Assembly: GCA_965238175.1 (NCBI GenBank)
Contig: CBDEGZ010000003.1
Span: 3,072,001 to 3,136,000, forward strand
Source: Gammaproteobacteria bacterium
GTDB lineage: Bacteria > Pseudomonadota > Gammaproteobacteria > CAJXQU01
Direction: 5' to 3'
Length of the DNA: 64,000 nt
The translations under genes were made by a program, and so were the position numbers. This document shows, one piece after another, positions 1-17,600 of the stretch; the stretch's first letter is position 1, and each line of letters begins with the position of its first letter. Below the pieces are notes generated by a model. The model saw only the letters and a program-made list of their open reading frames with translations, searched no databases and was not told the origin of the DNA.

Positions 1-254
1 TTTCTCAGCAAACTGATTCTCACGAAGTAACAGAAGCAGTCCAACAAATGGTATCTGCTACAGAAGAAATTACTGGTAATATTCATGTTGCAGCCAATTC
101 TGCTGATGAAGCTAATAAATCCGTACTACAAGGCAAGGCGGCTATTAAGGCGGTTAATTTATCGATAAACTCACTGGCAACTAAATTACAATCCTCAAGC
201 GGAGTGGCGAAAGAATTAGAAGAAAATACCAATGATATTAATTCAATATTAAAT
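1..254 (+). pseudogene. Methyl-accepting chemotaxis protein, 5' part (runs off window start), interrupted by IS481
   Basis: MCP methylation-helix-like sequence ...EAVQQMVSATEEI...LEENTNDINSILN; the frame resumes after the IS once the 7-bp duplication is removed (NSILN|[25 protein letters not shown]). Confidence 0.9.
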
Positions 255-1480
255 TGTAGAAGTTTAGACCCAATCTGACACATCACTAAATCAAGCGGAG
301 CGTAGCGACGCTTGATTTAGTGAGAGTTACCCGCTTTGATGTAACTGCAACGTAAACATCAAAACACAAAGAGGTAACTCTCATGATTCATACTAATGAC
401 AAAGTTATAAAACATAAAGTTGGTCTACTCAATCTCGCTGAAGAACTCGGCAATGTCTCAAAAGCCTGCAAGATGATGGGTTTGTCCAGAGATACATTTT
501 ATCGCTACAAAGAAGCGGCTGATGAAGGCGGTGTAGAAGCCTTGTTTGATCGTAATCGGCGTACCCCAAATCTTAAAAACAGAATCGACCCGGCTATTGA
601 AACCGTTGTGCTCGAGTATGCACTGGAAGAGCCCGCACATGGTCAAACGCGCACCAGTAACGAGCTGCGCAAACGGGGAACATTTGTCTCACCCAGTGGC
701 GTTCGTTGTATCTGGCTTCGTCATGGTCTTGCTTGCTTTAAAGATCGCCTGAAGGCATTGTCTGATAAGGTAGCTGGTGAAGGCTTGATCCTCACTGAGT
801 CTCAAGTCGCGGCGATGGAACGCAAGAAAGACGACGATGAGGCTTGTGGCGAGATAGAGACGGCACACCCTGGTTATCTTGGCTCGCAAGATACTTACTA
901 TGTCGGTACTTTCAAAGGCATTGGTCGGGTTTATCAACAAACGTTTGTTGATACTTACAGCAAGGTCGCTCACGCGAAACTGTACCCGACTAAAACACCG
1001 ATTACGGCAGCTGACATGCTCAATGACCGCGTCCTCCCATTCTACGAAGAACAACGTTTGCCTATGTTGCGCATTTTGACAGATAGAGGGACGGAGTATT
1101 GTGGGCGAGCTGACCAGCATGATTATCAGCTTTATATGGCGTTGAACAATATCGAACACACCAAAACCAAGGTCAAATCACCTCAGACGAATGGTATTTG
1201 TGAGCGATTCCATAAGACGATCCTCAATGAGTTTTATCAAGTCGCTTTGCGTAAGAAAATTTACCAATCGATTGATGAACTGCAACTCGACCTTGACGAA
1301 TGGTTGCTCAAATACAATACTCAACGAACTCACCAAGGCAAAATGTGCTGCGGGAGGACGCCGATGGAAACACTCATCGACGGACAAGCTATCTGGAAGG
1401 AAAAGTTTTTGAACTAAACTTAACCTGACAGTCAGTTACAGAAAAAGGGGTAACTGTCAGATCAAGTCTGAATTTCTACA
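255..1480 (+). mobile_element. IS481-family insertion sequence, copy 1 (1226 bp)
   Basis: Ends TGT...ACA; imperfect 26-bp terminal IRs (TGTAGAAGTTTAGACCCAATCTGACA vs TGTAGAAATTCAGACTTGATCTGACA, 21/26); 7-bp target duplication ATTAAAT at 248-254 and 1481-1487. Confidence 0.95.
383..1417 (+). CDS. IS481-family DDE transposase
   Basis: N-terminal HTH ([20 protein letters not shown]) and rve integrase core (QDT...TDRGTEY...[13 protein letters not shown]). Confidence 0.95.
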
Positions 1481-1985
1481 ATTAAATGTAATTCGTGGTA
1501 TTGCCGACCAAACTAATTTACTTGCACTCAATGCCGCCATTGAAGCAGCTAGAGCGGGTGAAAATGGCCGTGGTTTTGCCGTTGTTGCTGATGAAGTAAG
1601 GGCCTTGGCACATCGAACACAGGCGTCAACAACAGAAATACAGTCTTTGGTCGAACATTTTCAGAAAAATGTGAAAAGTACAGTTGATGTCATGCAAGAA
1701 GGCTCAGCAAGTTCCTTGTTGGCTACCGAAGATAGCTCTAATGCAACACAAGCACTTGATGAAATCGGCAAACAGATTTATGACATTTTTCAGTTAAACA
1801 CCAATATCGCAAGCTCTTCAGAAGAACAAGGCGCTATTATAAAGAATATTAATGAGAGTATTCAAAGCATAAATGAGAAAGCAAAAGAAACAGCAACTCA
1901 ATCGAATAAAACAAGTCAGTCAAGCACTCAAATAGAGTCAACAGCTTCCGAACTTCAATCATTAATTGCTACTTATAAATTCTAA
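1481..1985 (+). pseudogene. Methyl-accepting chemotaxis protein, 3' part (signalling domain)
   Basis: Encodes [40 protein letters not shown], the canonical MCP hairpin tip; stop at 1985; cut off from its 5' half by the IS. Confidence 0.92.
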
Positions 1986-2207
1986 ACAATTAGGCATTTT
2001 TATATTCCTAATATTCTGATGTCAGGCATTCTACGAAACAGCTATTTCTATTTCCAAGTACGCCAATAACAACGACACATTCAGACATAAAATGCTACTG
2101 ATCTTAAGATCGGCAAATAACCTGATGTGATGGTCTCCTCCCCCTAACGGCATCTAGGTGCCATGATTGAACTGACATACACACAATCAAAAGAGGAGAA
2201 GACCAAA

Positions 2208-3221
2208 ATGAAGACTACAACAATCGGGTTAGACATAGCAAAAAACGTATTTCATGCTGTCTGCTGTAATCAACAAGGGCGTATAATCAAAAAGAAAATG
2301 TTAAAGCGAGCGCAGGTACTCTCCTTTTTTCAATCTCAACCTCCTTGTTTAGTCGCAATAGAATCTTGTGCAACGTCACAGTATTGGGCCCGAGCGATAC
2401 AACAACAGGGACATCAGGTGAAATTACTACCACCTCAGCATGTTAACGCATTTCTAATCGGCAATAAGAATGATTATAACGATGCCTTGGCCATCGCCGT
2501 TGCTGCGAAACAACCTCATTTAAAAAGTGTGGGCATTAAATCAGTTGAGCAACAAGACAACCAGGCACAACATAAAGCAAGAGACTTAGCGGTCAGACAA
2601 AGAACCGCATTATGTAACCAAATGAGAGCGCTTGTTGCAGAATATGGCATTAGCCTTCGTCCCGGCCTAAATACCCTACGTCAATCTATCCCGTTGCTAT
2701 TAAGTGATGAGAACGAACGGTTGTCCGTTACTTTCAAAAGGATACTGCGCCAGCTAAAGGAACAATGGCAATCACTTGATGCCTGTATTGCGACATTTGA
2801 CCAATTGATCATTCAATCGGCAAAAAACAATGCGATTTGCCAACGCTTACAAACTATTCCAGGGTTTGGGCCGATGGTCTCGAGCGCGTATTTTAATGAA
2901 GTGGGAAACGGCGCTCATTATCACAAAGGGCGCGATGTGTCCGCCTCATTAGGACTTGTTCCACGACAGTACAGTAGTGGTGGTAAAGAGGTGCTACTGG
3001 GGATCAGTAAACGCGGCAATAAATACCTTCGTTGTTTGTTAATTCTAGGCGCGAAGGCCGTGGTATCAAGAGCCAAAACGAAAGGCGATAAACTGAGTCA
3101 ATGGATTAATCGTTTAGTTGAGACGCGGGGGCATAATCGAGCGTGTGTGGCGTATGCCAACAAAATGGCAAGAATGGCCTGGGCTATAACGGTTTCTGGT
3201 GATGACTACTCACCGGCCTAA
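2208..3221 (+). CDS. IS110/IS1111-family DEDD transposase (recombinase)
   Basis: GLDIAK, IESC and KNDYNDA DEDD RuvC-like motifs; C-terminal TIPGFG and GLVPRQYSSGG (catalytic Ser) motifs; start placed at the ATG after the GAGGAG RBS (ORF track starts at 2163). Confidence 0.95.
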   Translation: MKTTTIGLDIAKNVFHAVCCNQQGRIIKKKMLKRAQVLSFFQSQPPCLVAIESCATSQYWARAIQQQGHQVKLLPPQHVNAFLIGNKNDYNDALAIAVAAKQPHLKSVGIKSVEQQDNQAQHKARDLAVRQRTALCNQMRALVAEYGISLRPGLNTLRQSIPLLLSDENERLSVTFKRILRQLKEQWQSLDACIATFDQLIIQSAKNNAICQRLQTIPGFGPMVSSAYFNEVGNGAHYHKGRDVSASLGLVPRQYSSGGKEVLLGISKRGNKYLRCLLILGAKAVVSRAKTKGDKLSQWINRLVETRGHNRACVAYANKMARMAWAITVSGDDYSPA

Positions 3222-3239
3222 ATAGAGAGAACAAATCAT

Positions 3240-3450
3240 TTCAACGAATTGCGAAGGTAAAACTAAAGATGGCATAACAGGTCAAACCAGCCTATTGAAA
3301 ACCTGTCGAGCTCAGGGGTAACTAATACCGATAACCTGATAAGGAAAATAGGCGCGTAATACATCCAGGTCAGAAGTTGAAAACTTCATTGAAGGCCGTA
3401 TATATGACAGCAATCCTGTCCCTGTTATCTGAATGTTTTATCTTGCAATA
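3240..3450 (+). ncRNA. Predicted bridge RNA / seekRNA of the IS1111-type element (boundaries approximate)
   Basis: Stem GCCTATT(3290-3296)/AATAGGC(3347-3353) encloses GAGCTCAGG and ATAACCTGA, which match the two strands of the reconstructed insertion target; ATATATGA (3400-3407) matches the circle junction. Confidence 0.7.
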
Positions 3451-3470
3451 CGGGAGGAGACCATATATGA

Positions 3471-3700
3471 ACTCAAGATTCATGGAGCTTTCCACAGGGA
3501 CTAACCCAGTGATCCGCTCACCACTAAGCGTCCGACCCAAAACAGCTGAATAGATATCCACCGCTGTTCCTAATGGCGTAAATCCGACGCCTAGGTCAAC
3601 TGTCTTCCCAAACTCCCACAGCAGATCCACAAAATTCAATGGATCATTCCCCACATAGGCATACATATTCAACCTATAAGCAATTGGATCCGGTTGTAAA
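3471..3700 (-). pseudogene. RHS repeat-associated core / pre-toxin TG remnant
   Basis: Minus strand reads LQPDPIAYRLNMYAYVGNDPLNFVD (RHS core end motif), then DLGVGFTPLGTAVDIYSAVLGRTLSGERITG (PT-TG-like); no upstream RHS body and no toxin domain. Confidence 0.75.
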
Positions 3701-3791
3701 GATCAATTCACTCCGACCCTCTCTGCCCCTGTTGATCCAAGGACGACCAAGATTGAACAAATGTTACTATTAATAACTTGAGGAAGAAGAT

Positions 3792-4214
3792 ATGAAACTT
3801 TGGAATACATGCGAAGGTACTGGTAGCCTTCCAAAAAAAGCAATCGTAATATTCAATGCCTTCGAACAGAAGTTCAATGACTATATTACCGAAAAGAACT
3901 ACGGCAGCGGATTGAAGCAATGGTCGGTCATATTTATTATCGCTGGCGGACCGCTGGATCCAGGCTTTACTGAAAGAACTATGGTAAAGAGAAGCACACA
4001 GAAGATGGATTTTCGCTTGCGGGTAGATTTTGAGGCTTTTAAAAAAGGTAACACACAAAAACGCACTTTTCTAATGTATGATACTTTGCTTCGATCCCTA
4101 GATATTCTCGCGGCAAAGAAGGTCAAAGACTTCGACCTTGACAGTCTAAGAAAAGATTTTGAGGCTTGCGCAGGGCTGAATGGTTGGAATATCGATCCTG
4201 ATGAAACCGTCTGA
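3792..4214 (+). CDS. Putative polymorphic-toxin immunity protein (Imm44-like)
   Basis: 140 aa with GAGG RBS; NYGSGL...F.ER....K..DFRLRVDFEAF...KDFD pattern resembles Imm44/Imm12-type proteins; next to the RHS remnant. Confidence 0.6.
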   Translation: MKLWNTCEGTGSLPKKAIVIFNAFEQKFNDYITEKNYGSGLKQWSVIFIIAGGPLDPGFTERTMVKRSTQKMDFRLRVDFEAFKKGNTQKRTFLMYDTLLRSLDILAAKKVKDFDLDSLRKDFEACAGLNGWNIDPDETV

Positions 4215-4408
4215 AACGTAGGGATTTATGACCAAGTGCATTCGCCCCGCAGGAAACAGTCCAATGTCATCAACTATGATCCTAAAACCAAACAATGACT
4301 CTGGTTGAGAATATCTCGCCAAAGTCACAGACTGATGGCCAGATGAGAGCAAAGTTTTTGACATAAGGGTGCTGCAGAAAGCTAATCATCGATATTTTGG
4401 TACATTAA

Positions 4409-5242
4409 GTGATGAAAAAAAGAATTGATCTAATGTGGGTTATTGGCAAATTGCCAACACAAAAACAGCTTGCCGACGTTTTTTTCTTGCTATCAAAACA
4501 AGCCGACAGGACGCTGCAATTCGTAAGCACTCAAGATGCTTCGTTTAAGATGCGTGAATTGAGAGCCAAGCAAGGTTATCCCAATTTTTCTATTCCAGAT
4601 AATGCTCACATCCACCTGAGCATTCTTGCTCATGATGTTCCGAAGGGGCAGGATAGAAGATATCCGGACTTTAGCATCCATTTTGTAAGTATAGGGTTAA
4701 AATTTTCCCCACCTTATATATTGCACCTTATCATTGCGGAGAAACATCTATCTGCTTCACTTGATGAGTTCGTTTTTAATTGCAGTGCAATCGTAGCCAA
4801 AAAACTCCGAGTTACTTACGGTTACGGGTTAATTTGTGCATTCCGAGATGACGAGATTGAATATAGTCAGGGATCAACGGGGGTGAGTGAATCTGAAAAT
4901 CCAATGTTCGAAAAACTGGCAAAGGAAGTCAGGAAACTCGAAAATGGAACGTGCTTCCGAAAGATGGCATCTGGAGAGATCCTTCGTTCAGTATATCGTT
5001 GGAATATAACCAATGAGAAACTAAAAAATATCAGCGAATCTTCAGGGGAAGTTACGGTTCGTCAGCTTAACAACGATCTGTTTTTTTGGTTCTTGCCCAA
5101 GGAGAAAAAGGAAATAGTGTTTGATAAATTCAGAGAACTTGGCAAAACAGTTTACACTGAATGGGTTGACTATGAGGACTATGTACCCTGCCGACACTTT
5201 CTAGTTGATGTTGACGATTGGAATGCTATCAACGAGCTTTAG
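4409..5242 (+). CDS. Hypothetical protein, possibly an orphan immunity protein
   Basis: 277-aa open frame; YGYG and ILRSVYRWNI segments are reminiscent of toxin-immunity proteins; function is inferred from context only. Confidence 0.55.
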   Translation: MMKKRIDLMWVIGKLPTQKQLADVFFLLSKQADRTLQFVSTQDASFKMRELRAKQGYPNFSIPDNAHIHLSILAHDVPKGQDRRYPDFSIHFVSIGLKFSPPYILHLIIAEKHLSASLDEFVFNCSAIVAKKLRVTYGYGLICAFRDDEIEYSQGSTGVSESENPMFEKLAKEVRKLENGTCFRKMASGEILRSVYRWNITNEKLKNISESSGEVTVRQLNNDLFFWFLPKEKKEIVFDKFRELGKTVYTEWVDYEDYVPCRHFLVDVDDWNAINEL

Positions 5243-5614
5243 GCTAACTTGCGGTGCGTGCAGCCTTTTAGAGTCAGGTCTAACGTACGCTATGCTCGAT
5301 CATAAATCGACCGCCCTCAAGAGCGCCATCCCATAACTTAAAAGTCGAGCTTAAAAGAGTATATAAAGACAGTACAATAACTTTCACAAGTGTCCGTAAT
5401 CTCAAATAATGCCCCAATCAATAGAGTCAACTGGTGCTGCAATACATCCGTATTAAGACCAGCCGAGCGCCTTCTCCTGGATATCCAACTTCCGATCAGC
5501 CTGCCCTTGCAGGTCGAGCCGACTGACGCCCATTTCTTTCACGCCAAAGGCGGTGTAGATCGTTCCCATTGATTTCTATCCTATGGTTAGTCCAACTCTC
5601 TAACGACAATCGTT

Positions 5615-5661
5615 CCCCAAGTTTGGAATTTGGTAGCTAATAATTTTCTCGCAGGAAAGCG
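5615..5661. repeat. Junction repeat R1 of a three-copy direct repeat
   Basis: AAGTTTGGAATTTGGTAGCTAATAATTTTCTC (5619-5650) is identical to 6714-6745; both are followed 3 bp later by GGAAAGCG. Confidence 0.9.
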
Positions 5662-5666
5662 GTGCA

Positions 5667-6560
5667 CTAGACTCCATTCAATGCCTGATAAGTGATTCCT
5701 CTAGGCCTGTTTGGATGCGCGGCATCTGGTCCACTTTCGATGACTTCGTAGCCTCGTCCTTCAAAAATATAGTCAGCGATAGCGCGTTCCTGTGCGATCA
5801 TCTCTGATATGTCTTCAATCAAGTCTTCGTAGTCACCGTGCGTATCACCATTTTCTTCGATAGGTCCCTCAGGTGCAAGGGGATAAACATCAGTCAGTAT
5901 ACCGAGATCCTCAACAAGTTCCATGTCATGATTTACCTTTGGCCGCTTGTCCAACTCACAAAACAGGTCAAGATATCTATCTCTTACTTCCTCTTCTTTT
6001 ATTTGGGGATGAATTAGTATTTTCTTCATGGCCATTTCCGGAAACAGTTTCCGAAATATCCCAGGTATGAATAAGCACTCCGATTCGATAATCTCGTCGC
6101 CTGCAAGACAATAGCCATCCTCCATATCAACGAAGGATTCGATAATTTCCACTAAAGGATCGTCATCAACCTCTCTGCCAAGCTTTCGATCAATATCGTA
6201 AGCGCTCAGTTCAAAAAACATTTGAAATTGCAGGCCAGAAAACGCGGCTGTCTTCGCGATTACTTGCTCATTTTTCAAATTGCGTCCTGAAGCAAAATCT
6301 ACTATTGGAGATATGATTATACTTAGCAATCCGAGCGAGTGATACACAGTGAAGAAATGAGAATAATAGTTTCTGCTTGAAATAGAAAATCTTGATATTT
6401 GGTCATTATTCAATACTTCTTTTTCTGTACCAAACAAATTCTTGATTACATCAACCCGATTACATTTTTCGAAAGCCAGTATAACGTCAGTTTCAATGAT
6501 ATATGAGCTAAAGCGATCCTTATCGGCACAACTTACCGGAATTTTCTTTAGTTGTGACAT
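5667..6560 (-). CDS. Acidic hypothetical protein, paralogue A
   Basis: 297 aa with AGGAG RBS; shares IAQE.AI.DY.FEGR.Y and K.LF...N...S.F.I.SRN motifs with the ORF at 6701-7624. Confidence 0.8.
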   Translation of the reverse strand: MSQLKKIPVSCADKDRFSSYIIETDVILAFEKCNRVDVIKNLFGTEKEVLNNDQISRFSISSRNYYSHFFTVYHSLGLLSIIISPIVDFASGRNLKNEQVIAKTAAFSGLQFQMFFELSAYDIDRKLGREVDDDPLVEIIESFVDMEDGYCLAGDEIIESECLFIPGIFRKLFPEMAMKKILIHPQIKEEEVRDRYLDLFCELDKRPKVNHDMELVEDLGILTDVYPLAPEGPIEENGDTHGDYEDLIEDISEMIAQERAIADYIFEGRGYEVIESGPDAAHPNRPRGITYQALNGV

Positions 6561-6569
6561 GATCTACTC

Positions 6570-6646
6570 CTATTGTGAAAAATTAGGATTTCGCCAGATC
6601 AAAGTTTTCCCCGTCCGGTTGTCTAATATGATTAGCTGCGCGGCAT
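6570..6646 (-). pseudogene. Frameshifted microORF (MPQLIILDNRTGKTLIWRNPNFSQ after removing 2 nt)
   Basis: ATG at 6646; 77 nt to TAG at 6572-6570; deleting 2 nt from the CCGCGCAG stretch gives a peptide collinear with the microORF at 7638-7703. Confidence 0.5.
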
Positions 6647-6692
6647 TTCTTTTAACTGTACCGTATCACGCGCCTTACGATTCAGTTTTCCA

Positions 6693-6756
6693 AACTTGTT
6701 TCAATTTTTCCCTAAGTTTGGAATTTGGTAGCTAATAATTTTCTCTTTGGAAAGCG
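6693..6756. repeat. Junction repeat R2
   Basis: Contains the 32-bp block identical to R1 and a 35-bp block (6693-6727) matching R3 at 31/35 without gaps. Confidence 0.9.
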
Positions 6757-7624
6757 TATAACTGACTTCCCTCTGGTAGTCTCGCCCCTCAAACAGATAG
6801 TCAACAATCGCTTGCTCCTGCGCAATCAGTTCAGGATTGTCATCAAATTCTGCAAGATTATCAACCTCATCGTAAGTGTCGATATGGTCACCCAAATCAA
6901 AATCAAAGGCATCATAGGGCTCTAAAGTATCCACATAGGCAAATTTACCGACCAAACCTGGGTAACGAGACATCTTTACGGGTAAGTCAACATTTGAGCC
7001 ACCACAATGATCGTAGAGCTCCTGCTTGACCAGGAGTTGACTTTGAATGGAAGGGTAAAATATATCAGTAAGTTCACCCTGGTAAATTATTTCATGCCAA
7101 TAATTTTTATCCGTCAAAAACGCAAAAACAGTGGGACGATAATTTAGTAAAAACTCCAAAAATTCAAATTTCGGTAAATATACATCCCGACGCCGCTCGT
7201 CAATCGTAAGCTTATTCTCGTCGCTAAAGTAATTTAGTGTTAGATTGATATATTTAGTGCCCCGCAACAATTGGCTAGTTGATAACTTGTCTTGGATTGC
7301 TGTTAACTTGTCGTTTGCATCTGGCTTCGATTTATCATCATAATCACACTCAAATTCGTAATCAGAATAGGTGATCAAATCAATTGAACCATGAAACAAG
7401 CCCCCGAAAGAAATTTCAATGTTTTGAGAAATCAGATTTCTGCTTCTAATACAAAAACTTGATACATCTTTTGGATTGAATATATTGCCATCCAACTTAA
7501 ACAGGAGCTTTACAAAAGCGAGTAGGTCCCATTCTCTAACGACAATGTAAAAGTTGTCATCCCCAACTATCCATCCTTGATCCAGGTCGCTGTCGTCAAC
7601 AGTACGAAATTCAATCTGTTGCAT
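6701..7624 (-). CDS. Acidic hypothetical protein, paralogue B
   Basis: Start placed at MQQIEF after GGAG RBS (track start 7684); motifs shared with paralogue A; the last ~18 codons read through repeat R2. Confidence 0.8.
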   Translation of the reverse strand: MQQIEFRTVDDSDLDQGWIVGDDNFYIVVREWDLLAFVKLLFKLDGNIFNPKDVSSFCIRSRNLISQNIEISFGGLFHGSIDLITYSDYEFECDYDDKSKPDANDKLTAIQDKLSTSQLLRGTKYINLTLNYFSDENKLTIDERRRDVYLPKFEFLEFLLNYRPTVFAFLTDKNYWHEIIYQGELTDIFYPSIQSQLLVKQELYDHCGGSNVDLPVKMSRYPGLVGKFAYVDTLEPYDAFDFDLGDHIDTYDEVDNLAEFDDNPELIAQEQAIVDYLFEGRDYQREVSYTLSKEKIISYQIPNLGKN

Positions 7625-7637
7625 TTTGGTCTCCGCT

Positions 7638-7703
7638 TTATCTGGCCATATTGAAATGCAGTATCCTGCCTGTTCTTTGATCAATCAGGATAACTTGTTT
7701 CAT
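7638..7703 (-). CDS. Putative 21-aa microprotein MKQVILIDQRTGRILHFNMAR
   Basis: ATG follows GGGGGAAA inside repeat R3; stop lies just before the RBS of paralogue B; homologous peptide upstream of paralogue A. Confidence 0.5.
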   Translation of the reverse strand: MKQVILIDQRTGRILHFNMAR

Positions 7704-7726
7704 TTTCCCCCAAAGTTTGGAATTTG
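7692..7726. repeat. Junction repeat R3
   Basis: AACTTGTTTCATTTTCCCCCAAAGTTTGGAATTTG vs R2 AACTTGTTTCAATTTTTCCCTAAGTTTGGAATTTG. Confidence 0.85.
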
Positions 7727-7977
7727 ATCCTGTTTTTCGCAATTCTTGCAAAAATTCGTTTGCATTTTATCATCAGAGACTCGCACTACGAAGGAAATTT
7801 CGAGCTTGCCTATTATTAATTTTATTCGATATATTACCTATCATACTCTGATCACCCTGGCAAAATTCTGACAACTTGTTTTATGGCATTACCATCATCA
7901 GAATAAATTTGAAGTAGAGAATGCATATGATCGAGATATTTAAAAAAGGAAAATTACGTCCTTTAAATGATCAAAAC

Positions 7978-9612: not shown

Positions 9613-9835
9613 GTCTCAATTGATGAATATAGGCCACGGCTTGAAAATGCTTTTGTTTTTTCTTCGAGAAGAAGGCTTAAGACAAGAAATTTATATATCG
9701 AAACAATAAATGGGTTTGATGATAAAACACAAGAAGAATCTTGAAACAAAAAGTGCATCTAGAGAAATGAATTGCCTTAAAAAAACTTGAACACTTGATT
9801 AAACTAGAAAAGGTTTACCCTAATTGACTATCAAG

Positions 9836-11061
9836 TGTAGAAGTTTAGACCCAATCTGACACATCACTAAATCAAGCGGAGCGTAGCGACGCTTGATTTA
9901 GTGAGAGTTACCCGCTTTGATGTAACTGCAACGTAAACATCAAAACACAAAGAGGTAACTCTCATGATTCATACTAATGACAAAGTTATAAAACATAAAG
10001 TTGGTCTACTCAATCTCGCTGAAGAACTCGGCAATGTCTCAAAAGCCTGCAAGATGATGGGTTTGTCCAGAGATACATTTTATCGCTACAAAGAAGCGGC
10101 TGATGAAGGCGGTGTAGAAGCCTTGTTTGATCGTAATCGGCGTACCCCAAATCTTAAAAACAGAATCGACCCGGCTATTGAAACCGTTGTGCTCGAGTAT
10201 GCACTGGAAGAGCCCGCACATGGTCAAACGCGCACCAGTAACGAGCTGCGCAAACGGGGAACATTTGTCTCACCCAGTGGCGTTCGTTGTATCTGGCTTC
10301 GTCATGGTCTTGCTTGCTTTAAAGATCGCCTGAAGGCATTGTCTGATAAGGTAGCTGGTGAAGGCTTGATCCTCACTGAGTCTCAAGTCGCGGCGATGGA
10401 ACGCAAGAAAGACGACGATGAGGCTTGTGGCGAGATAGAGACGGCACACCCTGGTTATCTTGGCTCGCAAGATACTTACTATGTCGGTACTTTCAAAGGC
10501 ATTGGTCGGGTTTATCAACAAACGTTTGTTGATACTTACAGCAAGGTCGCTCACGCGAAACTGTACCCGACTAAAACACCGATTACGGCAGCTGACATGC
10601 TCAATGACCGCGTCCTCCCATTCTACGAACAACAACGTTTGCCTATGTTGCGCATTTTGACAGATAGAGGGACGGAGTATTGTGGGCGAGCTGACCAGCA
10701 TGATTATCAGCTTTATATGGCGTTGAACAATATCGAACACACCAAAACCAAGGTCAAATCACCTCAGACGAATGGTATTTGTGAGCGATTCCATAAGACG
10801 ATCCTCAATGAGTTTTATCAAGTCGCTTTGCGTAAGAAAATTTACCAATCGATTGATGAACTGCAACTCGACCTTGACGAATGGTTGCTCAAATACAATA
10901 CTCAACGAACTCACCAAGGCAAAATGTGCTGCGGGAGGACGCCGATGGAAACACTCATCGACGGACAAGCTATCTGGAAGGAAAAGTTTGTGAATTAAAC
11001 TTAACCTGACAGTCGGTTACTGATAATTGGGTAACTGTCAGATCAAATCTGAATTTCTACA
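9836..11061 (+). mobile_element. IS481-family insertion sequence, copy 2 (1226 bp)
   Basis: Near-identical to 255-1480; 7-bp target duplication TATCAAG at 9829-9835 and 11062-11068. Confidence 0.95.
9964..10998 (+). CDS. IS481-family DDE transposase
   Basis: Differs from 383-1417 at 2 residues (EEQ/EQQ, FLN/FVN). Confidence 0.95.
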   Translation: MIHTNDKVIKHKVGLLNLAEELGNVSKACKMMGLSRDTFYRYKEAADEGGVEALFDRNRRTPNLKNRIDPAIETVVLEYALEEPAHGQTRTSNELRKRGTFVSPSGVRCIWLRHGLACFKDRLKALSDKVAGEGLILTESQVAAMERKKDDDEACGEIETAHPGYLGSQDTYYVGTFKGIGRVYQQTFVDTYSKVAHAKLYPTKTPITAADMLNDRVLPFYEQQRLPMLRILTDRGTEYCGRADQHDYQLYMALNNIEHTKTKVKSPQTNGICERFHKTILNEFYQVALRKKIYQSIDELQLDLDEWLLKYNTQRTHQGKMCCGRTPMETLIDGQAIWKEKFVN

Positions 11062-11353
11062 TATCAAGTGCAGTGGAAATTTTATCCTGCACCCGTTGCA
11101 ATGCATCTTGAAAATCTTCTGAAACACCCTGATTTCCATTCTTATATTCAAGATATTCATGGACAATATTCAGCGCAGCCATCACTACAATTCGTTCACT
11201 TCCAGCAATCTTTCCATTGCTTCTAACTTCCTTCAACTTACCATTTAGAAACTCAACTGATGTGTAGAGCGAATCGCGCTCCTCGTCTGTACATGCAACC
11301 GTATATTCTTTATCTAGTATGCTGACTGTTACGGGTTTTTGCTCTTCGCTCAT
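11057..11353 (-). CDS. zapA: Cell division protein ZapA (last codons replaced by the IS end)
   Basis: VTVSILDKEYTVAC...ERIVVMAALNIVHE motif; downstream of the TIGR02449 gene. Confidence 0.93.
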   Translation of the reverse strand: MSEEQKPVTVSILDKEYTVACTDEERDSLYTSVEFLNGKLKEVRSNGKIAGSERIVVMAALNIVHEYLEYKNGNQGVSEDFQDALQRVQDKISTALDM

Positions 11354-11682: not shown

Positions 11683-14600
11683 TTACCATTTACCGATAAT
11701 ATCTAGGAACAGACCGTGAACATCGTAGTCCTGGCGAGTCAAATCATCATCAAACTTGGTGAAGTTATAACCCGCACCAACTTTAACGTTATCTCCAAGG
11801 TGACGATATAAACCCAATAATGCACCATGTCGCATATCGTCTTCCGTTTCAGACTGTAACCAACGGTATTCTGCCAGTCCATCCCAATGTTTGATAAAGT
11901 GATACCGTGCACGAACTACGGCTAGCCTTGCACCGGTTTCAAACCATTTACCTTGGTCACGATCTTGCCTGATATCACCACGTTTATAGGCTAATTTGCC
12001 ACCTAATTCCCAATATTCATCTAGATCGTAGAGTCCTTCTAGCGAGAGCACATGACTACGCTCATCATTTGGTCGTCGGGTAGATATCTGACCTTCGCTG
12101 GGCAGATCAAACAAGAAGCTATATTTAGCCAGTATATTCAGCTTGTCGTTAAATGTCGGTCGATATGCAGCACCGAAATCCAACTCCGTAAACTTGCCAT
12201 CTTTACGGCTATCGTCATCATCATTCGTCACAGAGAAGTTTAATTTACCTAACCACCTAAGACTCGGATCTTGCTTCCATTCGATGGCATTACTGGTTAG
12301 CCATTGTGTTGCGTTAACAGAACCTTCATCCTTTCTATATTCCAGTCGAGTGCTACCTTGCACACCATCTGATCCATACTGGGCTCCGACACTAAGAACA
12401 TCACGTTCAATATCTTCAGCACCTGTTACATCTAGATTACTGGATTGCATGGATGCAGAAAGACTCCAGGCATCGCTCAAGGCAAAGTCCAAACCATATA
12501 CCTTACTGACGCCGTCTTGAAGATCACTTTCAACAAACTGGTTCTCGCTAAACAATTTCAAACCATTTGCATATTCCCGACGACTACCCATCGTTAAGGT
12601 TGATCGTTTGCTGCCTGTTCGATCAGGATCTATTGCATAAGTACCGTACAAATCCACACCACTTGCGGTTGTATAGTTAGCGCCAACTTGACTTGTAGCT
12701 CCATCACCAAAACCACTGGATAATGAAAGCGTGGTCTTATCATTTACTGCATATTCAACACCTGCAACATAGGCATTTCCACGATCTCCGACACTGACCT
12801 CACCTTTCAATGCAAGCCGATCATTAACCTGAGTTGTCACACCCACTGTTGCCATATCATTGTCGTCATAATCATCCTTTTCAGAGAGCGTACCTTGTAG
12901 CGCACCGTACATCCGTGTCTGCTCCGTGAAGAAGTATTCCGCACTGACACCCAATAAATTTGCTGATCCATCTTCTCCGGTCAGAAAATCATCAATATCT
13001 TCATGTCGAATTTCGGCACCAACGGCAAATTCATTTGTGACTGCATAATCGCCTTGCAGACTTAGGTTTGTTTCTTTGCTTAAACCGTCTCTATCGTAAA
13101 CCGTTCCTCGTCCTGATATTGTCAGGTTTTCAGTCGCTTGAATTTGTCCTTCAAGACCAGCATCTAAAGTGTCAATACCGTTATCAACACGCGCGGCCGA
13201 GAAACCGGAATCCCGATCTTTATACCAAACTTCAAGTCGGCCATCTGTTTTACCTTCCGTCACTTCGGTTAAATTAACTTTACCTTCGATACTAAAGGCT
13301 CTGCCATCAACTCTATCATTACCATTAACCGGGTTTTTATCACTAAACGACAAACCTCCATCTAGAGATTGAGAATCACTATCCGTCTGACGTGCATCTG
13401 TCTTCGCGTATTCCCCTTTTACGTATGTTCCCTTACCAAGTTTCAGAGTCACATCTGTACCATGCATTCGATAATCACTATCATCACGATTTTCCTTAAC
13501 CACCGTTGCACCAAGTGCTAAATTATCAGTAACCCAAACCTTACTTCGCCCACCGGCAGTTATCTTGTCAGCTTCAAAACCATCCGCTACGAATTCATAA
13601 TCTGATAACAAGTAAACATTGTTACCTTCCAACGGACGATCTTTTATGATTGCTGGCGCTGAATTATTGGCAACCTGAGTCAGAGGACGACTGAGAATTA
13701 GACGTCCTTGAATATAATCAATCTCATAGTCTCGACCTTCTTCAAGGGTGATATTTTCGAGCACTCTTTCTGTATCTTTAGCCCTTATTTCAACCCAGAC
13801 TTTTTCTGATCCCTGAACAATATCTTTATCTCTCAGGTAATAGAGACTACCGCCAGTTGCACTAAATTCATTATGTGCAAATGAAGTTTGCGCTTCTGAT
13901 CCAAAACCATTGAGTTCAACTTTATGATCTCCAAATTTTGTTGTATTCACAGAACGATGTTGCAACTGAACACCATAGAGGCTGCGATCATATTGGGCAA
14001 ACTCATTACCCGTGAATCCAGTATGATAATTACCCCAGACGAAATGCGACTTATCCCAATCAACCCGAACATAGGCAGCACCTTGGGTATCAACATCACT
14101 TATCGTTGTCGAATCATCACCATAAATTGGATAAAACCTATCTGAATCTAATCGACGGAAGATCCGACTTGGATCTTTTCTCTCAAGATTGGAGCCGATA
14201 TTTTTCAGTTCATCTTCAGTCGTATCAATCTGTGCCGTGATCAAATATTTACCTTTGATTTTTCCTTTTAAGTACATGGCAAGCCGACCATCGACGAAAA
14301 TTTCCTCATCAAAATGATCATCGACTTCTAACGGTGATGCATTTCCTGAAACGCTATTATTTCCTATCGTCATGTTCGCAAGACCAACGAGGAACATATA
14401 CTTACCCGTCACATCAATCGGTACCGCATACGCCCACTTTTCTTCAGTCGAAGTTTCTAATTCCAGATCAAAAGTATGTTGGCCCGGTGGTAAATGTTGT
14501 TCGATCACAAAGGTATTGTTCTCAGCAACAGGTACTTCAACACCATCAACCATCAATTTATGATTTTTGTTGAGATCAACACCATGCAGTCTAACTCGAC

Positions 14601-17600
14601 TACCATGAACAGGAATTGTCTGGCGTGCAAGTTGTGATTTACCATAAATCGCTAAACCATCTGCGATTTGAGCATTTCTTATCAAATCTGCATCGATCGT
14701 TTTCAAGAACTGTGGCGCTGTTTCATCCATATGTCCTTCGGCATCATAGGTTCGTAATACGTAAGTCAATGGAGCTCCTGTTTCATAACGTTGCCCATTA
14801 AAACCTTCCCCATCCCAAGTAACCTTGTCCATGAAGCTAATATCATTGCCTCTTAAAGTCGCGATTGGTTGAACCATATCTCGATCAGAATCAGCAAAAA
14901 TAGCCAATTCCCAGTGATCAATAAAATGCTTGTAGTTACTGTACAAACTAAAGGTCACAGGTTCAGCCACTGATCCATCATTGATGATCAACGCGCTATG
15001 CGCCATGATTGACAGTCGCGGATCATTTGCAGCTGGATCTTCGACTGCCCAGATTGCGCCTCCGTCAGGTAAAAGGATCCTACTGTCACCTGGTTTACTG
15101 GCGACGAACACTTTTTTCTCAACTGTTCTTTCTTCAATTATGTCGTAGTGAACTTCAATTTCTGATCGCCGATTTAATTGCATTCCTTCTGGCGTTTCAT
15201 TTGTCGCCGCCGGCTCATTAAAGGAACGACCAGATGTCGTGATACTACCTTTTGATAATCCCATTCGTTGTTCAAAAATTCTGGCCGTTTTTGCTGCCCG
15301 AGCTTCTGATAAGCCTTGATTATCGCGATATTTTCTGGCAGTAGCCGGCGCGAGTCGTTGCGTATCGGTATGCCCAACAATATGTACGCGTATGTTCGGT
15401 TTATCACTGAGTAAATAGAGAACTTCCTGAAGTTGTTTTATGTGTTCAGGACGAATAAATGATTTACCAGAATCAAAATAAATCGGATCGACCACATTGG
15501 AAAGTTTAACTACCTCTTCCTTCACTGTCTCCTGAACCTCCGGTCGACCGGCTAATGTAAGTCGACCCGGTTCAGGCAACTTGACGGCAAAATTGAATTT
15601 CGACACCAAGGCCTGAGTAATACGCAAAACACGCGGATTTTCACTTACAAATACTGTTCCTTCCGGCAAAGTTGCTGGATCAACTTTGACAATATAATTA
15701 CGTCCTCGATCCAGTCGTCCACCATCAATATCAGCAATGTGGTATCGACCATAACGATCAGTTTCGATCAGTAATCCTTCCACTGTTGCAAGACGAACGC
15801 CGGGGATCCCTTCTTCGCCTTTATCCTGTACACCATTACTATTTCGATCGTCAAAAACTTTACCTATAATAGTGGTCTTTTGTAGTATTGGATCTTGAAT
15901 AATCCGTACCTTTGCAGTCGCCTGGTTACTCACCGGCCCACCAAAGAATAATGCGATTGCGGTATTCACATATTCGCCTGCAACTACACCCGTCGATACA
16001 CGTGTAAAGTACGCGATTTGGATTGCCTCACCGGGAGCAAAACTAAGCCCGCCGAAGTTGATCGGATCAACCCCCGTTGGGTTAATGATCGTCTTCAGAT
16101 CATCGAGTGTTCCCAGCTCACCATCAGCACCTTCTCTGATCAATAATGCTGATTCCGGTACATAACGGAAACCACCGGGTAGATCATCTTGAATATCAAT
16201 ATTGTCCAGATTATTTGATGTAGTATTTTCAGCTTCTAGCGTATAGAAAACAATATCGCCAATAACCGCTTCAGATCGGTCCGCTCTTTTCGATAATAAA
16301 ATTGAGCCGGTTGTTGCCAGTGGATCGATCGGAATATGATTATTGATCACGTCCTGATCACCAGCTTCTAGTGCCCAGGTATAGAAATATCTTGTTGCAT
16401 CTCCTGCTTGTGGTGGTGTTGCCTGTGCTTGTAAGTTACACGGCGGACCTGTGGTTGCATCACCCGGACACGTGGTGGCATCCAGTGCACCTGCCTCTGA
16501 AAGAATTGTTGTTGAGGGTTGTATAAAACCACCAGGAATTGTCGTCAATCTGACCCTGTAATCACCTGCCAGTAGAGTACATCCAGCGACACCAAGTTGT
16601 AGATCAAATCGATATTGTCCATTTGCTGATGTTACTTGTCCCGATTGTCCTGGTAATAAACAGGCCGTCGGCACAACATTGTTAGAACTGTCAACAAGAT
16701 CGATCCCCACTCCCGGCACTGGAGCTCTAGTAACAGTGTTATAGATGACTCCGCTAGGATCAACCGGTATCGGAACATTCACAACCGTGGCATTTGGAAT
16801 AGGTATTGTCTCTCTATAGAAAGTCACTCCCTGAGGTGTAATAGCATCAATAGTGAAATTTCCTGGTGTAAGACCTGTAAAATCAAACAAACCATCTGCT
16901 GTAGTGACCAGCGTTCCCACAGTATTCCCATTACTATCTCTAGCAATAATGGTCCATCCTTCCAATGGGTTTTCAGTACTTCCTAATTGATCGTTCCCAT
17001 CCGTATCTAGCCATACAACACCGGTTATACCGGTAGTGTAAGTAATAGGCGTTGGATCATCACTCCCAGTTGTGTCACCAGGTGCTCCCGGATTAGTTGT
17101 AGTTGGGTCAACTCCACTATCAGAAAGATCGGTAATAAAAGAACCTGGAGCCGCAACGTCTTCACCCGTAATTCTAGCCTGATTGGTTAAAGGGTTAGGA
17201 ATACCACTTGCTTGAGGGTTTATTAGTACGGAAAAATCAAAAGTTATCTGCTGACCAGCATCCAACCGCCCTGATGTACCATCAAATAAATTCGGTAGAC
17301 TATTAGTAATATTAGGATTTGTTGTAGCAGTGCTTGATACAATGGTAGAGCTTCCTGTCTCATAAGCGACAAAGGCGCTCCCAAATTGAGTCGAGACATC
17401 GTCAACCAAACTTAAATTATTAAGGTTCAGCACCCCTGTATTTTGTATGACGAGGCGGAATCTGAGCCGAAGATTACTACCTACCTGTGTGACTTCTGCT
17501 ACTTCTTTAGTTAACGAAATTGCTGAGCTTACTGCAAGTATAATTTGGGTTGGATCATTTTCTGAACTGTTGCCGCCTAAAGAGATTGTTTCCGACGGAT

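What the first reader, a model, noticed from the sequence alone, without database searches (positions are those of the whole stretch)
5585..7730. Repeat-delimited array of highly diverged unknown paralogues (cassette-like modules)
Seen: three direct repeats spaced 1095 and 999 bp apart. R1 and R2 share an identical 32-bp block; R2 and R3 match at 31/35. Each precedes a minus-strand module: R3-microORF-geneB, R2-microORF-geneA, R1-remnant. Genes A and B are homologous only in patches (K.LF...N...S.F.I.SRN; IAQE.AI.DY.FEGR.Y). Inference: after a plain tandem duplication, non-coding DNA should decay faster than protein, yet here the junctions are near-identical and the genes are very diverged. 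That fits modules being captured or exchanged at a conserved site, or a strongly selected regulatory element. The repeat is not attC, REP or CRISPR-like, and no recombinase lies next to it. It sits beside orphan immunity-like genes, so a conflict or defence role is possible. This is my best candidate for an undescribed system.
Basis: partly seen in the sequence, partly recalled or inferred. Interest (0 to 1): 0.8.

Follow-up and report, generated by a model that had tools for sequence, protein, structure and literature searches.

The report
Decaying tandem array of orphan genes
Two very diverged copies of an otherwise unknown gene lie head to tail in a degraded, insertion-sequence-ridden island, and the near-identical short repeats between them are the genes' shared 3' coding tail and stop/start junction, most likely kept alike by recent local recombination and not by a new cassette system.

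Summary
There are three direct repeats spaced 1095 and 999 bp apart. R1 and R2 share an identical 32-mer, and R2/R3 match at 31/35. They flank two minus-strand paralogues, A (297 aa) and B (307 aa), which are 25% identical.

The repeat is not an intergenic site. R2 is the last 16 codons of B, its stop codon, and the overlapping start of a conserved ~21-codon micro-ORF. R1 is an out-of-frame copy of that tail just behind A, fused to a 21-nt B-like N-terminal scrap. R3 is the last few codons and stop of a lost upstream copy.

The gene bodies are saturated at synonymous sites, but the tail is not: 13 of 14 identical residues keep the same codon, P about 2e-4. The junction copies are therefore young.

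The repeat, the genes and the whole island occur nowhere else in anything searched. No tyrosine recombinase gene lies within about 600 kb.

Best reading: a decaying tandem array of lineage-specific genes with recent intra-array recombination (gene conversion, duplication and deletion), inside a remnant Rhs/immunity island. Function is unproven. Capture of cassettes at a site is not supported, but it is not excluded.

The parts
7727..7837 (-). Open frame of 45 codons that runs into repeat R3. It shows no A/B-like motif and is of unknown origin. It lies between the island and a 60-nt relic of an HhH-GPD glycosylase gene.
   Evidence: frame from 7837 down to 7700, with no IAQE..FEGR motif; no significant tblastn match to A or B apart from QIPNFG.
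7692..7726 (-). Repeat R3 (layout y-O-D). It holds the 18-nt core O (7709-7726, encoding QIPNFG), a stop codon, and the first codons of the micro-ORF. It is the relic of the 3' end of a lost upstream copy, 'gene C'.
   Evidence: 31/35 identical to R2; the homology to R2 starts exactly at the core.
7638..7703 (-). Intact micro-ORF of 21 codons (MKQVILIDQRTGRILHFNMAR). Its ATG overlaps the preceding TGA stop (ATGA), a GGGGGA Shine-Dalgarno-like run lies 4 nt upstream, and it ends 13 nt before the ATG of gene B.
   Evidence: peptide-level conservation with the second copy (0 of 1000 shuffles reach the score).
6701..7624 (-). Gene B: 307 aa (327 aa from the alternative TTG at 7684), acidic (pI 4.36), no known family. 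It has a GGAG ribosome-binding site 8 nt upstream.
6702..6756 (-). Repeat R2, the complete version (U-O-D, with D running on to 6693). It is the last 16 codons of gene B (LSKEKIISYQIPNLGKN), the stop codon, and the TTG start of the micro-ORF.
6561..6704 (-). Intergenic stretch upstream of gene A with a degenerate micro-ORF. It reads TTG-KQVWKTES-stop, then an insert of about 60 nt with a second in-frame stop, then the conserved peptide LIILDNRTGKTL (about 6600-6632) in the same frame. An AGGAG site lies upstream of the gene A start.
   Evidence: One search shows a 10-bp hairpin (UUCCAAACUU/AAGUUUGGAA) formed across the insert junction; its folding z-score of -0.59 is not significant.
5667..6560 (-). 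Gene A: 297 aa, acidic (pI 4.53), no known family, and the only paralogue of B. It ends in its own tail, ..GITYQALNGV-stop.
5607..5661 (-). Repeat R1 (U-O). It is a copy of the B-type tail (LSCEKIISYQIPNLGNDCR-stop) that starts 5 nt after the stop of gene A, in the +1 frame relative to A. It is 49/55 identical to R2.
   Evidence: The sequence here agrees with independent contigs of run X1 (0 other letters, 0 gaps).
5590..5610 (-). A 21-nt scrap that matches codons of gene B (IVVREWD; here IVVRELD) at 19/21. It is joined to R1 through a shared ATTG. It is the relic of a further, young, B-like copy downstream of A.
   Evidence: family D9, 90%.
5243..5589 (.). Unidentified filler, richer in G+C (0.465-0.485 against about 0.40). 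It ends the array on its downstream side.
   Evidence: no other copy in the genome, no Pfam match, only chance-level DNA matches in 400 genomes of the class.
3475..5242 (.). The rest of the island. It holds an Rhs core-end plus toxin-end fragment (3475-3699, minus) cut by an IS110-family element, an Imm44 immunity gene (3792-4214, plus), and a 277-aa gene with no relatives (4409-5242, plus).

Best explanation
This is the remains of a tandem array of lineage-restricted genes.

The repeat unit is a gene of about 300 codons for an acidic, probably cytoplasmic protein. Its stop codon overlaps the start of a micro-ORF of about 21 codons, which is followed after a short spacer by the next gene.

The 'repeats' are the unit junction. 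Each holds the last 16 codons of the gene (part U, then an 18-nt core O), the stop/start overlap, and the first codons of the micro-ORF (part D).

The units duplicated long ago, and A and B have diverged to 25% identity. The junction copies are young. They were made alike, or left behind, by recent homologous exchange inside the array: short gene-conversion patches, and/or duplication of a B-like unit followed by deletions.

Two units are intact (B, A). At least two more survive only as scraps: R3, and R1 with the IVVRELD piece.

The array lies in an accessory island that is absent from the six other species of the genus. The island is bounded and cut by insertion sequences and also holds an Rhs toxin-end fragment and an Imm44 immunity gene. 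By association, A and B most likely belong to the inter-bacterial conflict repertoire, as orphan immunity-type proteins.

Shown: the anatomy, the two ages of sequence, the uniqueness of the locus, and the context. Inferred: the recombination history, and especially the function.
For: - R2 lies inside gene B. It is its last 16 codons plus the stop, and the micro-ORF start overlaps that stop in both R2 and R3.
- A and B show a coding signature with saturated silent sites. Nucleotide identity by codon position is 0.43/0.51/0.33, and 39 of 69 identical residues use different codons.
- In the R1/R2 tail, 13 of 14 identical residues use the same codon, P = 1.7e-4.
- The copies are mosaic. R1/R2 share U+O, R2/R3 share O+D, and R1/R3 share only O. 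Flank identities are 39/60, 28/60 and 18/60.
- R1 is followed directly by a 19/21 match to B codons for IVVREWD, so a young B-like copy once lay downstream of A.
- The micro-ORF is conserved as a peptide but not as DNA. The unit junction is therefore old, and only O+D within it is young.
- Nothing points to mobility. The repeat is confined to this locus. There were 0 hits to the back-translated tail. The 73 matches to the 18-nt core elsewhere (70 metagenome stretches and 3 viral) are all single, and the 72 with full flanks have chance-level flanks, at most 23/60. There is no nearby tyrosine recombinase.
- The region is in decay. An IS110-family element cuts the Rhs fragment. Of the HhH-GPD glycosylase gene that the closest congener G003 has next to catalase, only a 60-nt relic is left. 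The metallo-beta-lactamase-fold gene found there in G003 is missing.
- Imm44 lies next door. Zhang et al. 2012 (PMC3482391; passages read) describe tandem arrays of distantly related paralogous immunity genes. They state that Imm44 occurs in heterogeneous polyimmunity loci that vary between close strains.
Against: - Both homology tracts end within 0-11 nt of the same 18-nt core. Crossovers at a specific site would also produce that pattern.
- Homologous exchange normally needs a longer identical stretch than A and B now offer anywhere else; the longest run in the bodies is 9 nt.
- R1 is not simply A's tail. A has its own stop 5 nt before R1, and R1 is in another frame, so at least one extra event (a frameshift or a deletion) must be assumed.
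- No comparative data exist: there is one genome and one sequencing run, kept only as contigs.
- The functional guess rests on neighbourhood only. A and B match no immunity family. Their neighbours Imm44 and the 277-aa gene are on the opposite strand. No intact toxin gene is adjacent.
Confidence: 0.6

Rival explanations
1. The repeat is a functional element selected at the nucleotide level, not a product of recent exchange. It could be a translational-coupling or leader signal combining the Shine-Dalgarno run, the stop/start overlap and a hairpin. Such a signal would control the micro-ORF and the gene behind it, or act as an RNA-processing or stability signal at the end of each cistron.
For: - The core carries a G-rich Shine-Dalgarno-like run 4-5 nt before the micro-ORF start, and the stop/start overlap is kept in R2 and R3.
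- The micro-ORF peptide is conserved.
- In R2 the core pairs with a 10-bp complement just downstream. The R3 region folds better than shuffles (z = -2.38; 2 of 200 shuffles fold as well).
Against: - Only the 18-nt core is common to all three copies. U is missing in R3, and D is missing in R1.
- The R1 and R2 folds are not better than shuffles (z = -0.13 and -0.59), and the three predicted structures differ.
- The R2 hairpin owes half of its second arm to a copy-specific insert.
- There is no Rfam match at E up to 1, and the scan found no terminator-like site at any junction.
- The micro-ORF behind R2 is broken, and R1 has none.
- Selection on an RNA signal would not explain the silent-site identity across all 16 tail codons of U+O.
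Confidence: 0.15
2. The 18-nt core is a site-specific recombination site. The ~1-kb modules (micro-ORF plus gene) are cassettes inserted or excised there by a recombinase encoded elsewhere. [quoted passage not shown] This is the first reader's idea.
For: - The layout R2 = U-O-D, R1 = U-O-x, R3 = y-O-D is what crossovers within O would leave.
- The modules are of similar size, 1095 and 999 bp.
- The context includes immunity-type genes.
- rAID clusters are defined by a tyrosine recombinase, an array of co-oriented genes of ~100-300 codons, and conserved intergenic motifs (PMC12247911; passages read).
Against: - The six PF00589 matches in the genome all lie far away; the nearest is about 600 kb off across the contig ends, or 900 kb directly.
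- The site lies inside a coding region, not between genes.
- It occurs only at this locus.
- The core in its context is absent from the genome, metagenome and viral collections.
- The 'cassettes' are each other's only relatives in 1.84 billion representative proteins, which points to local duplication and not capture.
- The core has only a weak dyad (7-nt arms matching 6/7, 3-nt spacer; read from the sequence).
- The neighbouring IS110-family element inserts next to a different repeated sequence.
- Contigs of the one run show no alternative joint, but contigs cannot show rare forms.
Confidence: 0.06
3. The modules are degraded toxin-antitoxin-like pairs. The micro-ORF would be the stump of a small upstream antitoxin gene, and A/B would be PIN-like nucleases.
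For: - The order is a small ORF, then a larger gene, repeated, with the small ORF conserved as a peptide.
- The protein-language-model search placed A nearest to clusters named PIN-domain protein, DUF3368 or PIN_13, at scores 0.87-0.88.
- The one region of the A/B profile that hhalign matched to PIN-like DUF3368 proteins is the N-terminal I-V-x-D strand region.
Against: - All of these are below significance. Atlas scores under 0.9 with 120-132 shared features are leads only, by the tool's own calibration, and B gave no usable hit.
- hhalign probability is 0.7%, E 0.08.
- There was no Pfam match for the whole proteins at E up to 1 or for their halves at E up to 10, and no PADLOC match.
- The low-confidence models show three consecutive strands where a PIN fold alternates strand and helix.
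- A 21-residue peptide is too short for a known antitoxin (my own knowledge of VapB/MazE-type antitoxins, not tested here).
Confidence: 0.07
4. The repeats are chance similarity or an assembly artefact.
For: The 32-mer equals the word size at which short-read graphs collapse. The Logan contigs break exactly there.
Against: - 0 of 100 shuffles give two copies of the 32-mer.
- The collapsed 32-mer has twice the depth of its flanks (18 against 8-9.5). The three flanking contigs agree with the window with 0 differences.
- The chromosome contig of 3.33 Mb carries both copies in different contexts.
Confidence: 0.01

Closest known systems
Polyimmunity loci of polymorphic toxin systems (Zhang et al. 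2012, PMC3482391; passages read)
   Same: Both are tandem arrays of paralogous genes that are often only distantly related. Both vary between close relatives, lie near toxin cassettes or stand alone, and can include Imm44. Here an Imm44 gene and an Rhs toxin-end fragment lie within 2-3 kb, and the island is missing from the six congeners.
   Different: A and B match none of the described immunity families, and nothing else either. Only two genes are intact. Imm44 and the 277-aa gene are on the other strand. No protection has been shown.
[quoted passage not shown]
   Same: Both have co-oriented genes of about 300 codons with a conserved sequence motif at each gene junction, in an immunity-type context.
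   Different: There is no adjacent tyrosine recombinase. The motif is largely coding. The organism is a gammaproteobacterium, not a member of the Bacteroidales. There are only two genes, and they are each other's paralogues, not a collection of unrelated immunity genes.
Orphan toxin/immunity modules behind rhs and cdi loci (Poole et al. 2011, PMC3150448; Koskiniemi et al. 2014, PMC3967940; search listing and start of abstracts only)
   Same: A short conserved stretch is repeated before successive variable modules, allowing homologous recombination. An Rhs fragment is present in the island.
   Different: As I recall it from those papers (not read here), the conserved stretch in those systems is the 3' end of the rhs/cdiA core at the 5' end of each orphan toxin. 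Here it is the 3' tail of a non-Rhs gene. TIGR03696 matches only at 3625-3699, not in A or B.
Integron gene cassettes with attC sites
   Same: Modules are about 1 kb and are separated by a recurring short element.
   Different: There is no integrase. The element is not a structured, imperfect inverted repeat outside the coding region.
   Same: Old, diverged duplicates carry a short, nearly identical patch. Silent sites are saturated outside the patch and conserved inside it.
   Different: Here the patch sits at the unit junction, and two of the three copies are relics. Duplication followed by deletion therefore cannot be separated from conversion.

Membership tests
Tandem paralogue array with recent intra-array exchange | The adjacent genes are homologous | tested here: met
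   25% identity over 324 columns. BLASTP block 19/36, E 1e-07. Each is the other's only match in the genome.
Tandem paralogue array with recent intra-array exchange | A patch is far more similar than the rest, including at silent sites | tested here: met
   Patch 49/55 with a 32-nt identical run, against 42.5% overall and a longest run of 9 nt in the bodies. 13 of 14 identical residues use the same codon, against 30 of 69 in the bodies; P = 1.7e-4.
Tandem paralogue array with recent intra-array exchange | Direct evidence of conversion or unequal crossover (variants between strains or within reads) | not testable with these tools
   Only one run holds the DNA, and it is kept as contigs. No other genome has the locus.
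Polyimmunity locus (Zhang et al. 2012) | The genes belong to recognised immunity families | tested here: not met
   A and B have 0 Pfam and 0 NCBIfam families at E up to 1. Only the neighbour at 3792-4214 matches Imm44 (E 2.8e-11).
Polyimmunity locus (Zhang et al. 2012) | A tandem, co-oriented array that varies between close relatives | tested here: inconclusive
   A and B are co-oriented, but Imm44 and the 277-aa gene are on the other strand. The island is absent from 6 of 6 congeners, but no strain of the same species is available.
Polyimmunity locus (Zhang et al. 2012) | The proteins neutralise toxins | not testable with these tools
   This needs co-expression with toxin domains.
rAID cluster | A tyrosine recombinase gene at the head of the array | tested here: not met
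   The genome has six PF00589 matches. The nearest lies about 600 kb from the locus across the contig ends, or 900 kb directly.
rAID cluster | An array of co-oriented genes of ~100-300 codons encoding orphan immunity proteins | tested here: inconclusive
   There are two co-oriented genes of 297 and 307 codons. An immunity function is not shown.
rAID cluster | Conserved intergenic sequence motifs | tested here: inconclusive
   A conserved motif exists at each junction, but most of it is coding sequence of the upstream gene.
Integron cassette array | An IntI integrase, and attC sites with paired inverted core sites outside the ORFs | tested here: not met
   There is no nearby PF00589 match. The repeat overlaps the ORF end. 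The folds of R1 and R2 are no better than shuffles.
Rhs/CDI orphan module | The conserved stretch before each module is the end of the Rhs or CdiA core | tested here: not met
   TIGR03696 matches only at window 3625-3699. The A and B tails have no such match.
PIN-type toxin with upstream antitoxin | A detectable PIN-like domain | tested here: not met
   No Pfam match for whole proteins at E up to 1 or for halves at E up to 10. hhalign against 11 DUF3368-type proteins of more than 120 residues (one shorter one was left out) gave probability 0.7%. Atlas scores were 0.87-0.88, below the tool's 0.9 line.

The most novel reading that the evidence does not exclude
The 18-nt core is a recombination site, and ~1-kb 'micro-ORF plus gene' modules are inserted, excised or swapped there by a recombinase that is not linked to the array. 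That would make this a relic of an integron- or rAID-like array of conflict genes in a sparsely sampled gammaproteobacterial order. The mosaic R2 = U-O-D, R1 = U-O-x, R3 = y-O-D is what crossovers within O would leave. My evidence argues against this reading, but it cannot exclude it without raw reads or sister strains.
Probability: 0.05. Interest if true: 0.7.

Novelty: new member of a known kind. Interest (0 to 1): 0.25.

Why it matters
As read here, the locus is ordinary genome biology: a decaying tandem gene pair with a recent recombination patch, in an island riddled with insertion sequences.

Two things are mildly useful:

- A and B form a protein family with no relative in 1.84 billion representative proteins, yet with clear signs of purifying selection. 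They sit beside Rhs and immunity remnants, so they are a candidate new immunity-type (or otherwise conflict-related) family from an under-sampled lineage.
- The unit has a conserved ~21-codon micro-ORF coupled to the stop of the preceding gene, and automatic annotation would miss this.

If the cassette reading were true, it would extend recombination-built immunity arrays beyond the Bacteroidales.

Tried and rejected
**Structure**
- AlphaFold2 on the two-sequence alignment gave unusable models: mean pLDDT 39.2 for B and 35.6 for A.
- Foldseek of the B model against PDB gave 0 matches at E up to 0.001, with best TM 0.26, which is meaningless.

**Family and similarity searches on A and/or B (plus neighbouring ORFs in the family scans), all negative**
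- Pfam and NCBIfam.
- PADLOC and PHROGs.
- PDB sequences with the A/B profile: 0 matches at E up to 10.
- Plasmids searched with B and phages with A, by tblastn.
- hhalign of A/B against the neighbouring 277-aa and Imm44 proteins: probability 0.1% each.
- ESM Atlas: no usable hit for B; PIN-named clusters at 0.87-0.88 for A.
- hhalign against PIN-like DUF3368 proteins: probability 0.7%. I rejected this as evidence and kept it only as a lead.

**RNA and signals**
- No Rfam family at E up to 1.
- No terminator-like site at any junction.
- Folds of R1 and R2 are not better than shuffles.

**Programmed -1 frameshift from the tail into the micro-ORF**
An in-phase G-GGA-AAA heptamer precedes the stop in R3 only, not in R2 or R1 (read). 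Rejected.

**IS110-family element as the recombinase for the repeat**
Of its 25 copies, the 24 full-length ones had their flanks read. About half are followed by a different repeated sequence, and none resembles the core. Rejected.

**Filler at 5243-5589**
No other copy in the genome, no Pfam match, and only two chance-level DNA matches in 400 class genomes. It remains unidentified.

**Expression and excision**
- No RNA holder is listed for this DNA.
- The only holder (X1) is kept as contigs. These break at the 32-mer and show no joints. Neither expression nor circles could therefore be tested.
- Runs X2 and X3 of the same sample had nothing laid on the stretch.

**Other**
- A class-level match in G400 (E 0.0057, two TGA stops inside) is what 400 genomes give by chance.
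- Supplementary files of the papers cited could not be seen. The lists of rAID and polyimmunity loci in them might contain arrays more similar to this one.

Full report
**Observation**

The repeat finder gives a 35-nt family at 5598-5632, 6693-6727 and 7692-7726, spaced 1095 and 999 bp, with R3 31/35 identical to R2. It also gives a 55-nt pair, 5607-5661 and 6702-6756, at 89%. The 32-mer at 5619-5650 recurs exactly at 6714-6745. No third copy appears with up to 3 mismatches, and 0 of 100 shuffles gave two copies.

Two minus-strand ORFs fill the intervals: A (5667-6560, 297 aa) and B (6701-7624, 307 aa; a TTG at 7684 would give 327 aa). They are real paralogues:
- They are 25% identical over 324 columns.
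- The best block is 19/36, E 1e-07.
- Each is the other's only match in the genome.

**Anatomy of the repeat**

I read the junctions on the minus strand. R2 is not intergenic. It is the last 16 codons of B (LSKEKIISYQIPNLGKN), the TGA stop, and a TTG that overlaps the stop and opens a short frame.

I split R2 into three parts:
- U: 29 nt.
- O: an 18-nt core, CAAATTCCAAACTTNGGG, encoding QIPNLG.
- D: the stop/start overlap and the first four micro-ORF codons.

The other two copies are partial:
- R1 holds U and O. It starts 5 nt after A's own stop and lies in the +1 frame relative to A. A ends in its own tail, GITYQALNGV.
- R3 holds O and D. Upstream of O, its 45-codon open frame has no A/B motif.

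Outside the core, flank identity is 39/60 for R1/R2, 28/60 for R2/R3, and 18/60 for R1/R3, which is chance level.

Directly after R1, through a shared ATTG, comes a 21-nt stretch that matches B's codons for IVVREWD at 19/21 (family D9). A young B-like copy therefore once followed A.

**The micro-ORF**

Behind R3 an ATG overlaps the stop (ATGA) and opens MKQVILIDQRTGRILHFNMAR (7638-7703). A G-rich Shine-Dalgarno-like run lies 4 nt upstream.

Behind R2 the same frame reads TTG-KQVWKTES-stop. After an insert of about 60 nt with a second stop, it reads LIILDNRTGKTL.

The two peptides score 35, and 0 of 1000 nucleotide shuffles reach that. The DNA similarity is at chance: 535 of 1000 shuffles do as well. 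The unit 'gene, coupled micro-ORF, next gene' is therefore old, and one micro-ORF copy is now broken. Both genes have good ribosome-binding sites.

**Two ages of sequence**

The codon-aligned A/B bodies have nucleotide identity of 0.43, 0.51 and 0.33 at codon positions 1, 2 and 3. Of 69 identical residues, 39 use different codons. These are genuine protein-coding genes, long diverged, with saturated silent sites.

Over 840 aligned nt the identity is 42.5%. The best 55-nt window is 41/55, and the longest identical run is 9 nt.

The R1/R2 tail is 49/55 with a 32-nt identical run. In it, 13 of 14 identical residues keep the same codon (P = 1.7e-4 given the body's rate).

**Uniqueness**

The repeat occurs only here in the 3.35-Mb genome:
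- A BLAST of 86 nt finds 2 places.
- The 32-mer has 2 hits with up to 3 mismatches. The 16-nt core has 3 hits with up to 1 mismatch, all at this locus.

A back-translated pattern for EKIISYQIPNLG found nothing in metagenome contigs or genome contigs. The 18-nt core found 70 metagenome and 3 viral stretches, each with a single match. By my own rough estimate that is about the number chance predicts. The 72 matches with full flanks were at most 23/60 identical to any of the three copies, with a mean of 16.8.

A and B have no relatives:
- They found only themselves among 820 and 1289 candidates in the 5.8-billion-cluster search.
- The A/B profile found only these two among 1,835,955,588 representatives.
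- 0 of 6 congeners match. Those six are also the only other genomes held for the whole order.
- Of 400 class genomes scored, one gave a chance-level hit (E 0.0057); one further genome was not scored.
- In genome contigs, 161 stretches matched a pattern, but none was confirmed.
- Plasmids searched with B and phages with A gave nothing.

**Context**

The locus lies in a heavily rearranged stretch:
- An IS110-family element occupies about 2115-3474. A BLAST finds 25 copies in the genome, this one included.
- That element cuts an Rhs core-end fragment at 3625-3699 (weak TIGR03696 matches: E 0.008, and 2.4e-4, both below the family cut-off). The genome has seven stronger Rhs core matches elsewhere.
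- An IS481-like element lies at about 249-1485 and 9830-11067. At least 24 other near-full copies are listed, which is a floor, because only 40 of 127 candidates were scored.
- Between them lie an Imm44 gene (3792-4214, E 2.8e-11), a 277-aa gene that also has no relatives, unidentified G+C-richer filler (5243-5589), the A/B array, and catalase.

In the closest congener, G003, catalase (86% DNA identity) is followed by a metallo-beta-lactamase-fold gene and an HhH-GPD glycosylase gene. The window keeps only a 60-nt relic of the glycosylase 3' end at 7849-7908. The rest is absent from the whole genome. The stretch from 3475 to about 7848 is thus an island that replaced native genes, and it has since been cut up.

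**Recombinases**

The genome has six PF00589 (tyrosine recombinase) matches. The nearest lies about 600 kb away across the contig ends, or 900 kb directly. The flanks of the 24 full-length IS110 copies show a different preferred neighbouring sequence, unrelated to the core.

**Reads**

One public run holds the DNA, and it is kept only as contigs. The contigs agree with the window with 0 differences and break at the 32-mer. The 32-mer's depth (18) is twice that of its flanks (8-9.5). No joints are listed. This confirms two copies of the 32-mer but cannot reveal rare excised or deleted forms.

**Function**

A and B are acidic (pI 4.53 and 4.36). B has no hydrophobic segment, and A has only a marginal one (Kyte-Doolittle 1.78 over 19 residues).

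All family, structure and fold searches failed.

One weak lead exists. The language-model search put A nearest to PIN-named clusters (0.87-0.88). hhalign aligned the N-terminal strand region to PIN-like DUF3368 proteins, but at probability 0.7%. I do not count this as evidence.

By neighbourhood, the family most plausibly belongs to the inter-bacterial conflict repertoire. Zhang et al. 2012 (PMC3482391; passages read) describe tandem arrays of distantly related paralogous immunity genes. They note Imm44 in heterogeneous, strain-variable polyimmunity loci, sometimes next to XerC/D recombinases.

**Interpretation**

The simplest account is a decaying tandem array whose unit junction has recently been exchanged among units.
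- At least four units existed: C (only R3 left), B, A, and a young B-like copy (only R1 and the 21-nt scrap left).
- The junction is the only place where selection kept a run of identity long enough to seed homologous exchange. There the tail peptide, the ribosome-binding run, and the stop/start overlap are all constrained together. This would explain why both young tracts include the core.
- Conversion cannot be told apart from 'recent duplication of a B-like unit, then deletions'. Either way an extra event is needed to explain why R1 lies out of frame right behind A's stop. A single-base indel within an 8-nt window (ATGGAGTC) would join A's frame to R1 (read).

I put this reading at 0.6. The main reservation is that the two tracts end within 0-11 nt of the same core, which is also what site-specific crossovers would leave. 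With one genome, that rival can only be made unlikely, not excluded.

**Comparison with known systems**

Among known systems, the locus most resembles a small polyimmunity-type array. Its layout superficially resembles rAID clusters, which are defined by a tyrosine recombinase, co-oriented genes of 100-300 codons, and conserved intergenic motifs (PMC12247911; passages read). However, the defining recombinase is absent, and the motif is coding.

It is not an integron array and not an Rhs/CDI orphan module (see the membership rows).

I did not test that note. It agrees with my reading but is not independent support.

**Verdict**

The cassette-system reading is not supported.

What remains is a new, very narrowly distributed gene family in a familiar kind of arrangement. 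Interest is low to moderate, limited mainly by the complete lack of comparators.

Noticed in passing
window 2115-3474 and 24 other places in the genome: An IS110-family element of about 1360 bp has 25 copies. In about half of them the right end is followed by the same ~40-nt sequence (gggataagaatg.ccataaaaacattaaaagacaatg...). This suggests targeted insertion next to a dispersed repeat, as is known for IS110-type elements.
   Followed up: partly
window 249-1485 and 9830-11067: Two identical copies of an IS481-like element (344-aa transposase with HTH and rve domains), in the same orientation, bracket the whole region. At least 24 further near-full copies are listed in the genome, so this chromosome has undergone a large insertion-sequence expansion.
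   Followed up: partly
window 3475-3699 (minus): An Rhs core-end motif (YVGNDPLNFVD) is followed by about 50 codons of a toxin end, then cut by the IS110 insertion. The genome has seven stronger Rhs core matches elsewhere, two of them about 100 kb further on.
   Followed up: partly
window 4409-5242 (plus): A 277-aa ORF between Imm44 and the array has no relative in the 5.8-billion-cluster search and no family match. It is another lineage-only gene of the island.
   Followed up: partly
window 7849-7908 (plus); L012 4276-5701: A 60-nt relic of the 3' end of an HhH-GPD glycosylase gene survives in the window. In congener G003 the intact gene and a metallo-beta-lactamase-fold gene lie next to catalase, and both are missing from this genome.
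   Followed up: yes
window 1605-1985 (plus): A 126-aa fragment of a methyl-accepting chemotaxis signalling domain lies between the IS481-like and IS110 elements. It is probably a gene cut by insertion.
   Followed up: no
window 11683-19875 (minus): A giant 2730-aa ORF has SdrD_B, DUF11, prealbumin-like and OmpA domains. It looks like a large surface or adhesin-type protein.
   Followed up: no
window 5243-5589: A stretch richer in G+C (0.465-0.485 against about 0.40) lies between the array and the 277-aa gene. It has no copy, family or relative in anything searched, and its origin is unexplained.
   Followed up: partly
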